64,000 bases of DNA from a virus (Duplodnaviria > Caudoviricetes): positions 10,686 to 74,685 of IMG/VR virus record IMGVR_UViG_3300015608_005401. The stretch is one strand, 5' to 3'. A program made the translations under genes and the position numbers. The notes under the pieces were generated by a model. That model was not told the DNA's origin. It made no database searches and worked only from the letters and a program-made list of their open reading frames with translations. Positions 38,844 to 64,000 of this stretch are shown piece by piece. Position 1 is the first letter of the stretch; each line of letters starts with the position of its first letter.

Positions 38844-38913
38844 GAGGGGATAACATAATGGTAGTGTACCGGGCGGAAAACCGGTAGTGTTAGTTCGATT
38901 CTAGCTCCCTTCA
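38844..38913 (+). tRNA. Phe-like tRNA with an 8-nt anticodon loop (GCGGAAAA)
   Basis: GAGGGGA/TCCCTTC stem; D and T arms intact. Confidence 0.55.
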
Positions 38914-38921
38914 CTACAAAT

Positions 38922-55703: not shown

Positions 55704-55775
55704 TGCGGGGTAGAGCAGAGGTAGCTCGCAAGGCTCATAACCTTGAGGCCGTTGGTTCGATTCCAACCCCCGCTA
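55704..55775 (+). tRNA. tRNA-Met(CAT), initiator-like
   Basis: 1:72 mismatch, AGAGCAG..GGTAGCTCG D region, loop CTCATAA; has its own promoters and no leader ORF. Confidence 0.85.
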
Positions 55776-56186: not shown

Positions 56187-56272
56187 GCTACGGTATGCAA
56201 ACCGGAATAAGCAACCAGACTTTCAATCTGGACATCGAAAGATGTGTGCGGGTTCGAGCCCCGTCCGTAGTA
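56187..56272 (+). tRNA. long-variable-arm tRNA with a TTC (Glu) anticodon
   Basis: GCTACGG/CCGTAGT stem, A73, CCAGA-CTTTCAA-TCTGG, ACATC-GAAA-GATGT variable arm. Confidence 0.8.
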
Positions 56273-56279
56273 CAAATTT

Positions 56280-62802: not shown

Positions 62803-62931
62803 TTAAAAATAACTTACTAAATGCTAATAAATTTGGTGAATTGAAAATCTCACCGTATATTTGTAAAACAATTGGGAAAGGCAACGATTTAGATACAACT
62901 CTCAATTATTTTTACAAATTTTAGAAAAAAA

Positions 62932-63004
62932 TTAGGTAGATTTAAAACTTTTATCTATATTTGTATAAAATAAGTCAAAAGGGACAAAAAACTTTTAATA
63001 TATA
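62932..63004 (+). promoter_or_regulatory. tandem promoters of tRNA operon 5
   Basis: TTAGG..TATATTTG (62956-62963) and TTAATATATA (62995-63004). Confidence 0.7.
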
Positions 63005-63009
63005 CTACA

Positions 63010-63117
63010 ATGACAACAATGAATTTAAATATGAACATGAATCTAACAGTGGTGCTTAATACGTTATGTATTAGACGCTCTGAGGGCTTCGTCATATCTA
63101 AACGATTTGTTGGCTAA
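63010..63117 (+). CDS. attenuator leader peptide L5 (MTTMNLNMNMNLTVVLNTLCIRRSEGFVISKRFVG)
   Basis: Five Asn codons upstream of two tRNA-Asn genes; ATT and AGA codons match the Ile(GAT) and Arg(TCT) genes. Confidence 0.8.
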   Translation: MTTMNLNMNMNLTVVLNTLCIRRSEGFVISKRFVG

Positions 63118-63147
63118 TGTGAAACAAATTATATAAAGGATAAATCG

Positions 63148-63180
63148 AAACCCTCAGACAAAAAATCTGAGGGTTTTTTT
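63148..63180 (+). terminator. attenuator terminator T5
   Basis: AAACCCTCAGA-CAAAAAA-TCTGAGGGTTT then TTTT. Confidence 0.9.
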
Positions 63181-63207
63181 ATGTCCCTATAAAAATAAAA
63201 AATATCT

Positions 63208-63281
63208 TCCTCGGTAGCTCAGTTGGTTAGAGCATCTGACTGTTAATCAGAGGGTCGCTGGTTCGAGTCCAGCCCGGGGAG
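63208..63281 (+). tRNA. tRNA-Asn(GTT)
   Basis: TCTGA-CTGTTAA-TCAGA, G73. Confidence 0.93.
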
Positions 63282-63291
63282 CAAAAATAAA

Positions 63292-63376
63292 CGGTAGGTA
63301 CCCGAGCGGTCTTCAGGGACTAGTCTGATACACTAGGTGAGAAATCACGACGTGGGTTCAAATCCCACCCTACCGA
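63292..63376 (+). tRNA. long-variable-arm tRNA with a GAT (Ile) anticodon
   Basis: CGGTAGG/CCTACCG stem, A73, CTAGT-CTGATAC-ACTAG, GTGA-GAAA-TCAC variable arm. Confidence 0.8.
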
Positions 63377-63382
63377 CAACAT

Positions 63383-63454
63383 TCACTGGTAGCTCAGAGG
63401 CAGAGCAGGCGCCTGTTAAGCGTTAGGTCGGGATATCGTAATTCCCCCAGTGAG
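63383..63454 (+). tRNA. tRNA-Asn(GTT)
   Basis: Loop CTGTTAA, G73, atypical T-loop ATCGTAA. Confidence 0.8.
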
Positions 63455-63459
63455 CAAAT

Positions 63460-63538
63460 GCCCCAGTAACCGAGGTCGCCTTCTAAGCGACTAATCGTAA
63501 CGGAGTTGAAAATGTAGGTTCGAATCCTACTTGGGGTA
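63460..63538 (+). tRNA. tRNA-Arg(TCT)-like, no conventional D-arm, long variable region
   Basis: GCCCCAG/TTGGGGT stem, GTCGC-CTTCTAA-GCGAC, GTAGG-TTCGAAT-CCTAC. Confidence 0.65.
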
Positions 63539-63598
63539 CAATTTCGAACTTTTTTTGAGTTTCGAAACTTAATATATAATAAAAAATAAATTTATTAT

Positions 63599-64000
63599 AT
63601 GAAAGTTTGTAAAAAATGCTTAATTGAAAAGGAAATAGAAGATTTTTCTTTTAAGGATAAAAAAGTTGGAAAAAGGCAAGCTTATTGTAAAGAGTGTTTT
63701 ATTTCTTTAAGAAAAGAATCTTATAAGAAAAATAAAAATCACTATTTAGGAAAAGCAAAAAATAGAAAAAAAGAAATAGTAGATTGGTATGTAGAAATTA
63801 AAAAAACGATGAAGTGTCAAAAGTGTGGATTTTCACATCCAGCAGCTTTAGATTTTCATCATAAAAATGAGAATGAAAAAGAATATGATGTATCTCAATT
63901 AGTGAGAAATGGTAACAAAGATAAAATATTAAAGGAGATAGAAAAATGTATCATTTTATGTTCAAATTGTCACAGAATACATCATTATGAAAATGAATAA
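63599..64000 (+). CDS. HNH homing endonuclease
   Basis: CKKC..CKEC zinc finger; CQKCG..LDFHH..CIILCSNCHRIHH. Confidence 0.85.
   Translation: MKVCKKCLIEKEIEDFSFKDKKVGKRQAYCKECFISLRKESYKKNKNHYLGKAKNRKKEIVDWYVEIKKTMKCQKCGFSHPAALDFHHKNENEKEYDVSQLVRNGNKDKILKEIEKCIILCSNCHRIHHYENE

What the first reader, a model, noticed from the sequence alone, without database searches (positions are those of the whole stretch)
63010..64000. Attenuator 5: Asn/Met/Leu/Thr/Val leader gives a prediction for sequence beyond the window
Asn codons at positions 5, 7, 9, 11 and 17 match two tRNA-Asn genes; ATT and AGA match the Ile(GAT) and Arg(TCT) genes. TCTGAGGG (63079-63086) is identical to the terminator 3' arm and so can pair 8/8 with its 5' arm. 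The core also has internal Met x3, Leu x4, Thr x4, GTG GTG and Cys codons with no matching tRNA inside the window. By analogy with operon 1, which continues through endonuclease genes, the cluster should resume after the HNH gene.
Basis: inference. Interest (0 to 1): 0.8.

Follow-up and report, generated by a model that had tools for sequence, protein, structure and literature searches.

The report
Codon-sensing switch before phage tRNA genes
A giant uncultured lake phage places a 35-codon test gene and a switchable transcription stop in front of a tRNA gene array. Related phages show that this array holds the tRNAs whose codons fill the test gene, so the phage probably makes these tRNAs when ribosomes read those codons slowly.

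Summary
It cannot be checked on this contig, which ends at base 64000.

What is in the window:
- A 35-codon ORF at 63010-63117.
- A copy of the terminator 3' arm inside the ORF, at 63079-63086.
- An intrinsic terminator at 63147-63177 plus a T7 run.
- Four tRNA(-like) genes starting 27 nt later, followed by an HNH gene.

Evidence from relatives:
- I found 45 distinct homologues of the leader. All keep the frame open, and indels inside it come in threes.
- 95% of the codons before the arm copy fall in {Asn, Met, Leu, Thr, Val, Cys, Ile, Arg}, against 42% background.
- The arrays downstream hold almost only those eight tRNA kinds, Cys included.
- One relative carries a 75%-identical HNH gene at the same site, and its array resumes after that gene.
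- The antiterminator pairing shows compensatory changes.
- A differently organised 636-kb phage regroups its tRNAs, and its leaders follow the new groups (1 of 5040 permutations).

Best reading (about 0.8): a trp/ilv-style leader-peptide attenuator that gates tRNA genes. Four literature searches found no published case. This scan had already reached the same reading for attenuators 1-4 of this window and for other phages. No expression data exist, and the order of events in the switch is inferred.

The parts
62932..62963 (+). Promoter-like element of the Bacteroidota type (TTAG, 20 nt, TAnnTTTG) about 47 nt upstream of the leader ATG
   Evidence: Pattern scan. One such element precedes each of the five leaders in the window. 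There are 25 + strand hits against 5.0 +/- 2.4 in Markov shuffles. The consensus itself is recalled from the literature and was not tested here.
62990..63004 (+). Motif ending in TTAATATATA, 5 nt before the ATG
   Evidence: There are 19 + strand copies in the contig, and 18 are followed by an ATG 4-24 nt later. These include ORFs of 200-350 codons and 4 of the 5 leaders. Its role (phage promoter or start signal) is unresolved.
63010..63117 (+). Leader ORF, 35 codons
   Evidence: The frame is open in 45 of 45 homologues, while the other two frames carry 282 and 233 stops in total. 108 of 113 gap runs inside the ORF are multiples of 3, against 9 of 127 after the stop.
63013..63066 (+). Regulatory codons 2-19: Thr, Met, Asn, Leu and Val only
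   Evidence: for codon content. In the masking model, an A site at codons up to 19 leaves segment 2 free.
63024..63103 (+). Hairpin 1:2 (candidate anti-antiterminator), which holds segment 2 against the regulatory codons
   Evidence: -18.3 kcal/mol. It is 77-83% paired in homologues against 37-50% for slid controls. RNAalifold does not recover it.
63079..63091 (+). Segment 2, the antiterminator 5' strand. It includes the copy of the terminator 3' arm.
63146..63158 (+). Segment 3. It is the terminator 5' arm and also the partner of segment 2.
   Evidence: 12 pairs, 89.6% of cells paired, 3 pairs with compensatory changes, slid controls at most 56%. Duplex energy -19.0 kcal/mol.
63166..63180 (+). 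Segment 4 (terminator 3' arm) and the T7 tract
   Evidence: hairpin -16.6 kcal/mol. It is 100% paired in 45 homologues with one AU/UA swap.
63208..63282 (+). tRNA-Asn (GTT), canonical. It starts 27 nt after the T tract.
   Evidence: 71.6 bits.
63292..63377 (+). 86-nt tRNA with a long variable arm and anticodon GAT (Ile codons)
   Evidence: 51.9 bits.
63383..63455 (+). Second tRNA-Asn (GTT), with an unusual T arm
   Evidence: 45.9 bits.
63460..63538 (+). tRNA-like gene with anticodon TCT (Arg AGA), no D arm and a 19-nt insert in the variable region
   Evidence: 34.7 bits. ARAGORN calls its homologues Arg(tct) in 37 related arrays.
63599..64000 (+). HNH endonuclease gene inserted in the array. 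Its stop codon is the last three bases of the contig.
   Evidence: A 75%-identical copy sits at the same site in L056. It is absent from most relatives.

Best explanation
This is a ribosome-mediated (leader-peptide) transcription attenuator that gates a phage tRNA operon.

Proposed course of events:
1. Transcription starts at the promoter-like element(s) upstream and enters a 35-codon ORF. Its first 19 sense codons after the ATG are all Thr, Met, Asn, Leu or Val, followed by Cys, Ile and Arg.
2. If the matching charged tRNAs are plentiful, the ribosome runs through. Segment 2 (63079-63091) is then covered by the ribosome or is recaptured by the upstream strand (hairpin 1:2).
3. Segments 3 and 4 form the terminator, and little transcript reaches the tRNA genes that begin 27 nt later.
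4. If any of these codons is read slowly, the ribosome sits on the upstream strand. Segment 2 stays free and pairs with segment 3 as it emerges. The terminator cannot form, and RNA polymerase reads into the array.
5. The array holds Asn, Ile, Arg and, by synteny, Leu, Val, Cys, Thr and Met. The result is a negative feedback that tops up exactly the tRNAs that limit decoding.

Shown here: the ORF and its conservation; the three alternative pairings, with covariation for 2:3 and 3:4; the codon/tRNA match.

Inferred: that the ORF is translated; that termination is conditional; the order of events; the benefit to the phage.
For: 1. Anatomy: ORF, arm copy, terminator, then tRNA genes 27 nt later with no room for a promoter in between.
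2. Translated ORF: 45 distinct homologues all keep the frame open. Indels come in threes inside the ORF but not after the stop.
3. Selection on which tRNA reads a codon, not on the residue itself:
   - 95% of codons before segment 2 fall in the eight-amino-acid set, against 42% background. The figure is 94% when the five codons fixed by my search pattern are left out.
   - 94% are readable by the array's anticodons, against 30% from segment 2 to the stop and 41% in long ORFs.
   - In the window itself the count is 21/21 against 4/13, Fisher p 1.4e-5.
   - 22 of 23 alternative residues at these positions stay in the set, against a null of 44%.
4. Downstream arrays in about 40 loci hold almost only these eight tRNA kinds.
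5. Antiterminator 2:3: 89.6% of cells paired, three pairs with compensatory changes, and no shuffle of 500 reaches the covariation score.
6. Folding energies: region z = -4.1 and -4.9. The terminator is -16.6, the 1:2 hairpin -18.3 and the 2:3 duplex -19.0 kcal/mol.
7. In the masking model, 2:3 forms with the A site at codons up to 19 and is lost at codons 20-32.
8. The same design occurs six times in the 476-kb relative. These operons cover 19 amino acids by standard ARAGORN calls, plus a Cys(GCA)-like gene. The true leader-to-operon assignment is the single best of 720.
9. LR756504 groups its tRNAs differently (for example Leu+Ser+Cys, Ile+Arg+Met, Tyr+Gln+Lys). Its seven leaders follow these groups, and the true assignment is the single best of 5040.
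10. The leader ATG has the same upstream motif, at the same spacing, as long protein genes.
Against: - There are no expression, ribosome or termination data, and the phage and its host are uncultured.
- RNAalifold on the 45 sequences recovers only the terminator. The 1:2 hairpin was derived from the window's own fold, so its counts lean towards it.
- The stop codon lies 24 nt beyond segment 2. Unlike trpL, a ribosome at the stop would not cover segment 2.
- With the whole transcript at equilibrium, the terminator wins for most ribosome positions. Any switch must therefore be kinetic.
- The Cys, Ile and Arg codons (20-22) lie so close to segment 2 that a stall there should mask it. Their match may not be regulatory.
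- Leaders of other operons in this phage share an Asn/Leu/Ile-rich N-terminus. Part of the Asn signal at codons 5-7 may be common ancestry.
- The HNH gene carries its own TTAATATATA motif. If that motif is a promoter, the distal tRNAs could escape the attenuator.
- The core of segments 2-4 was partly fixed by my search pattern and filter.
- The 735-kb phage LR756501 shows no such leader before one of its arrays.
Confidence: 0.8

Rival explanations
1. A constitutive leaky terminator. The hairpin only sets a fixed low level of tRNA transcription or insulates the array from upstream genes. The small ORF plays no sensing role.
For: The terminator is the only structure that RNAalifold recovers. At equilibrium it forms for most ribosome positions.
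Against: This does not explain the conserved copy of the 3' arm inside the ORF with compensatory changes. It does not explain the frame conservation. It does not explain why leader codons follow tRNA content in two differently organised genomes.
Confidence: 0.07
2. An untranslated RNA switch. The leader RNA binds a tRNA (T-box-like), a protein or a small molecule, and the open frame is incidental.
For: Alternative terminator and antiterminator pairings are also the hallmark of riboswitches and T-boxes.
Against: No Rfam family other than tRNA reaches its threshold in the window. There are 0 stops in frame in 45 homologues, against 5-6 per sequence in the other frames. Indels come in threes only inside the ORF. 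Substitutions keep the tRNA set rather than the nucleotides.
Confidence: 0.04
3. A small peptide gene with its own terminator. The peptide has a function of its own, and the codon match reflects composition or shared ancestry of paralogous leaders.
For: Leaders of this phage share an N-terminal motif. The ORF has the same upstream motif as real genes.
Against: The residues vary freely within the tRNA set, while the C-terminal part varies across all classes. The match is operon-specific in 6 + 7 units. The tRNA genes have no promoter room of their own.
Confidence: 0.04
4. Translation of the leader controls processing or stability of the tRNA precursor (for example access of RNase E or RNase P) rather than transcription termination.
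For: The leader and the tRNAs must be on one transcript. Ribosomes on a 5' leader can protect RNA.
Against: The hairpin is followed by a T7 tract, the signature of an intrinsic terminator. The competing pairing targets the terminator's 5' arm precisely.
Confidence: 0.05

Closest known systems
Multivalent leader-peptide attenuators of enterobacterial amino-acid operons (ilvGMEDA leader sensing Leu/Val/Ile; thr leader sensing Thr/Ile); from my own knowledge of the textbook systems
   Same: A short translated leader rich in codons for several amino acids. An intrinsic terminator lies before the first regulated gene. The antiterminator shares a strand with the terminator, and an upstream strand can sequester the antiterminator.
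   Different: The regulated genes are tRNA genes, not biosynthetic enzymes. Five to eight amino acids are sampled. The element is viral. There is no sequence similarity, and no Rfam leader family matches. The stop codon lies well beyond segment 2.
trp operon attenuator (trpL)
   Same: The 1:2, 2:3, 3:4 logic, with regulatory codons placed about 15 nt or more ahead of segment 2.
   Different: trpL senses a single amino acid. In trpL the ribosome at the stop codon covers segment 2, whereas here it would not.
pheST (pheM leader) attenuator of E. coli; from my own knowledge
   Same: Leader-peptide attenuation applied to a component of the translation machinery rather than to biosynthesis.
   Different: It controls an aminoacyl-tRNA synthetase, not tRNA genes, and senses one amino acid.
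T-box riboswitches
   Same: A terminator/antiterminator choice that reports on the state of a particular tRNA.
   Different: T-boxes bind uncharged tRNA directly and need no ORF. No T-box match was found, and here the frame is under selection.
Leader/tRNA units reported by this scan in other phages (Caulobacter phiCbK-like, Cellulophaga and other lake phages) and attenuators 1-4 of this window
   Same: The same design: a codon-matched mini-ORF, a built-in antiterminator and a terminator, followed by a tRNA array.
   Different: Those are unchecked AI notes on other DNA. I re-derived only the units of this window, of its 476-kb relative and of LR756504.

Membership tests
Ribosome-mediated (leader-peptide) transcription attenuators | A short ORF in the 5' leader that is translated | tested here: inconclusive
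   The comparative signs of translation are strong: the frame is open in 45/45, indels come in threes, and the start context matches real genes. No direct evidence of translation is available.
Ribosome-mediated (leader-peptide) transcription attenuators | The ORF is enriched in codons whose decoding reports on the regulated product | tested here: met
   Codons 2-22 of the window leader are all readable by the array's anticodons. The homologues show 94%, against 30% downstream and 41% background.
Ribosome-mediated (leader-peptide) transcription attenuators | An intrinsic terminator between the ORF and the first regulated gene | tested here: met
   A 12-bp stem at 63147-63177 plus T7, with the first tRNA 27 nt later. 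It is 100% paired in 45 homologues.
Ribosome-mediated (leader-peptide) transcription attenuators | An antiterminator that excludes the terminator and is favoured when the ribosome stalls at the regulatory codons | tested here: met
   The pairing 63079-63091 with 63146-63158 shows compensatory changes at three pairs. In a footprint-masking model it forms with the A site at codons up to 19. The kinetics are inferred.
Ribosome-mediated (leader-peptide) transcription attenuators | An upstream strand that sequesters the antiterminator when there is no stall (1:2) | tested here: inconclusive
   It is predicted at -18.3 kcal/mol and is 77-83% paired in homologues. RNAalifold does not recover it.
Ribosome-mediated (leader-peptide) transcription attenuators | Readthrough rises when the cognate charged tRNA is scarce | not testable with these tools
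   This needs a reporter or in vitro assay.
Classical attenuators as usually defined (amino-acid biosynthesis or aaRS operons) | The regulated genes encode biosynthetic enzymes or synthetases | tested here: not met
   The downstream genes are tRNAs and an inserted HNH endonuclease. For this reason I class the element as a new variant.
Rfam leader families (Trp, His, Thr, Leu leaders, leu/phe leader) and T-box | A match to the family covariance model at the gathering score | tested here: not met
   Only tRNA matches were found in the whole window.

The most novel reading that the evidence does not exclude
These phages carry a near-complete tRNA set. It is split into six or seven operons, each behind its own codon-resolved ribosome-speed sensor. 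This would let the phage detect which host tRNAs are missing or have been cut (for example by anticodon-nuclease defences or host shut-off) and replace only those. It would be an inducible counter-defence and tRNA-homeostasis circuit, of a kind described neither for tRNA genes nor for viruses.
Probability: 0.3. Interest if true: 0.9.

Novelty: new variant of a known kind. Interest (0 to 1): 0.8.

Why it matters
As far as I know, tRNA genes are controlled at promoters (growth rate, stringent response) and not by attenuation. A leader that reads its own operon's codons would be a direct feedback from decoding speed to tRNA supply.

- It would explain how huge phages with 40-60 tRNA genes dose them.
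- It offers a testable link between phage tRNAs and host tRNA-targeting defences.
- It gives annotators a rule that predicted the unseen content of an operon from 35 codons, which this case confirms.
- The leader/array pairs could also serve as natural, codon-specific sensors of translation speed.

Tried and rejected
- Own assembly: the contig ends at window base 64000, so ARAGORN downstream was impossible.
- The first viral scan, with an 18-nt AT-rich word, gave 21 loci, of which only 2 were real homologues.
- Relaxed ARAGORN thresholds flooded the output with false calls, so I did not use them.
- Pfam gives nothing for the HNH ORF. PHROGs does. My Pfam query for the insert in the 476-kb relative had wrong coordinates, and that ORF stays uncharacterised.
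- Equilibrium folding of the full transcript with ribosome masks gave no clean switch. Only the transcript without segment 4 did.
- RNAalifold did not recover 1:2 or 2:3.
- I considered pairing between the small upstream hairpin's loop and the leader. Only 8 nt match in the window and the match is not kept in LR745206, so I dropped it.
- Mar_Mega_1 (OU342829.1) is not in the collection.
- LR756501 shows no leader before the array I inspected.
- Four literature searches found no paper on attenuation of tRNA genes.

Full report
**Where the window comes from.** The window is the last 64 kb of a 74,685-bp virus contig, so nothing lies beyond base 64000 in this assembly. BLAST places it near the uncultured phages LR745206.1 (635 kb) and LR756502.1 (642 kb). 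A paper describes these two as freshwater and subsurface megaphages with no confidently predicted host (PMC9723777). A 476-kb IMG/VR contig, 97% complete by CheckV, has a leader region 93% identical to mine.

**The observation.**
- The ORF at 63010-63117 has 35 codons.
- Its Asn codons are at positions 5, 7, 9, 11 and 17. It also has three internal Met, four Leu and four Thr codons, GTG GTG, and then TGT, ATT and AGA.
- TCTGAGGG lies at 63079-63086 and again at 63166-63173. Its complement lies at 63151-63158.
- The 8-mer occurs three times on this strand of the whole contig.
- The hairpin at 63147-63177 is followed by seven T.
- Twenty-seven nt later come Asn(GTT), an 86-nt long-arm tRNA with anticodon GAT, a second Asn(GTT), and a D-arm-less tRNA-like gene with anticodon TCT that only Rfam detects.
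- The last ORF matches PHROG HNH endonuclease families.
- One correction: a tRNA-Met(CAT) does exist in the window, at 55704.

**The prediction.**
- In the 476-kb relative the array begins with the same four genes. It is interrupted at the same place by a different insert. It then continues with Leu, Asn, Val, Ile, a Cys(GCA)-like gene, Thr, Val, Leu, Thr, Leu, Ile, Met, Thr, Leu, Met, Leu.
- Contig L056 carries a 75%-identical HNH gene at the same site, with the same upstream sequence. Its array resumes after that gene with Asn, Val, Ile, Cys, Thr, Leu, Leu, Met, Leu.
- Two pattern scans gave 45 distinct homologues of the leader.
- About 40 of them have downstream sequence. There ARAGORN calls almost only Asn, Ile, Arg, Leu, Val, Cys, Thr and Met. 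About five calls in roughly 380 are odd: three of other kinds (Ser, Lys and a Cys with anticodon aca) and two unassigned four-base anticodons.
- Asp, Pro and Gln, which the leader lacks, form a separate operon in the relative behind a Pro/Gln/Asp-rich leader.
- Eight amino acids were left unplaced by what the window shows. The leader names exactly the five that share its operon, which is one choice in 56 (my arithmetic).

**Is the ORF translated?**
- All 45 homologues keep the frame open (34-40 codons). The other two frames carry 282 and 233 stops in total.
- 108 of 113 gap runs inside the ORF are multiples of three, against 9 of 127 between the stop and the terminator.
- Before segment 2, 95% of codons fall in the eight-amino-acid set, against 42% in long ORFs. 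The exceptions are Lys at codon 2 and Pro next to segment 2.
- Five codons were fixed by my search pattern. Without them the figure is 94%.
- At codon level, 94% are readable by the arrays' anticodons, against 30% from segment 2 to the stop and 41% background.
- In the window the boundary is sharp: codons 1-22 are all readable, and then only 4 of 13.
- At the regulatory positions, 22 of 23 alternative residues stay inside the set although only 44% of nonsynonymous neighbours would. The C-terminal part varies across all residue classes.
- This is selection on which tRNA reads the codon, not on the peptide.

**Structures.**
- The region folds better than shuffles (z = -4.1 and -4.9).
- Three alternatives exist:
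  - hairpin 1:2 (63024-63103, -18.3 kcal/mol);
  - antiterminator 2:3 (63079-63091 with 63146-63158, duplex -19.0);
  - terminator 3:4 (-16.6).
- On the 45-sequence alignment, 2:3 is 89.6% paired, against at most 56% for slid partners. Three of its pairs show compensatory changes.
- The terminator is fully paired, with one AU/UA swap.
- The 1:2 hairpin is 77-83% paired, but it was derived from the window sequence and RNAalifold returns only the terminator. I treat 1:2 as likely, not shown.
- With a ribosome footprint masked and the transcript ending before segment 4, 2:3 forms when the A site is at codons up to 19. It is lost at codons 20-32.
- The effective sensors are therefore the Thr, Met, Asn, Leu and Val codons. 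The Cys, Ile and Arg codons are probably too close to segment 2.
- The stop codon lies 24 nt past segment 2, and full-transcript equilibrium favours the terminator. The decision must therefore be kinetic.

**Is it a general design?**
- Each of the five leaders in the window is preceded by a Bacteroidota-type promoter-like element.
- The 476-kb relative has six leader/terminator/tRNA units covering 19 amino acids plus a Cys(GCA)-like gene. The true leader-to-operon assignment is the single best of 720 permutations.
- LR756504.1, a third lineage, groups its tRNAs differently: Thr+Asn+Arg, Arg+Ile+Met, Glu+Ala+Ile+Val+Gly, His+Phe, Asp, Tyr+Gln+Lys, and Leu+Ser+Cys. Each leader follows its own group, and the true assignment is the single best of 5040.
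- LR756501.1 shows no such leader before the array I inspected.

**What is known.**
- The logic is that of leader-peptide attenuation, closest to the multivalent ilv and thr leaders.
- No Rfam leader or T-box model matches.
- The regulated genes are tRNAs, which fails the usual definition of the class. Hence my classification as a new variant of a known kind.
- Four full-text searches found no report of attenuation of tRNA genes.
- This scan had already given the same reading to attenuators 1-4 of this window and to unrelated phages. Those notes are unchecked, and I re-derived only what is cited above.

**Verdict.** The best explanation is a ribosome-mediated attenuator that gates a phage tRNA operon, with confidence 0.8. 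What remains to be shown is translation of the ORF, conditional termination, and the response to tRNA supply.

Noticed in passing
window 63292-63377, 63383-63455, 63460-63538; also 56187-56273 and L030-L033: Canonical tRNAs alternate with odd ones in the arrays. One has a Tyr-like D arm, a long variable arm and anticodon GAT. One has anticodon TCT, no D arm and a 19-nt insert. One Asn tRNA has an aberrant T arm. In the 476-kb relative there are 85-88-nt 'long' versions of Asn, Glu, Lys, Met and Thr tRNAs. Who charges them and what they decode is unknown.
   Followed up: partly
window 62832-62925: A second promoter-like element is followed by a small hairpin with a conserved 20-nt loop, a covarying stem and a T-rich tail. 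It lies just upstream of the leader's promoter and is conserved in at least 10 related loci. It may be a small RNA of about 45 nt. I found no convincing target.
   Followed up: partly
contig-wide, e.g. window 37714, 39201, 57091, 62995, 63569: The motif TTAATATATA lies 4-24 nt before start codons: 19 + strand copies against 8 on the - strand. One copy precedes the lone tRNA-Met at 55704. It could be a phage promoter giving nearly leaderless mRNAs, or a translation start signal.
   Followed up: partly
L033 (G001:C1:271092-272289): The 476-kb relative has a sixth leader/tRNA unit that is not on my contig. A Pro/Gln/Asp-rich leader of 32 codons and a terminator precede Asp x4, Pro (one by default ARAGORN, a second only at relaxed settings) and Gln x3. 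Together the six units cover 19 amino acids by standard ARAGORN calls plus a Cys(GCA)-like gene, within about 55 kb.
   Followed up: yes
L168, L170-L176 (LR756504.1): There are seven leader/terminator/tRNA units here, with a different grouping of amino acids. Two sit in tandem, with the Asp unit reading into the Tyr/Gln/Lys unit.
   Followed up: yes
window 63599-64000; L032 16050-16890; L056: Different inserts occupy the same site after the Arg(TCT)-like gene: an HNH gene here and in L056, an unrelated long ORF in the 476-kb relative, and nothing in most others. This points to turnover of homing endonucleases inside tRNA arrays.
   Followed up: partly
L001 7150-7236, L002 7128-7212, G001:C1:257262-257346: A Cys(GCA)-like gene with a much enlarged D arm and a U discriminator lies between Ile(GAT) and Thr(TGT). 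ARAGORN misses it at default settings. L056 and others have a canonical 74-nt Cys(GCA) at that position.
   Followed up: partly
window 38844-38914; G001:C1:257917-257989: ARAGORN reports tRNA-like genes with four-base anticodons (ggaa here, acat in the relative) inside the arrays.
   Followed up: no
L002 6283-6483: In LR756502 a 66-codon ORF sits between the leader's terminator and the first tRNA. Its function is unknown.
   Followed up: no
L169 (LR756501.1 180628-192712): The 735-kb phage has an Ile/Cys/Asp/Asn/Tyr array with no recognisable leader ORF or terminator in the 400 nt upstream. The design is therefore not universal among the largest phages.
   Followed up: partly
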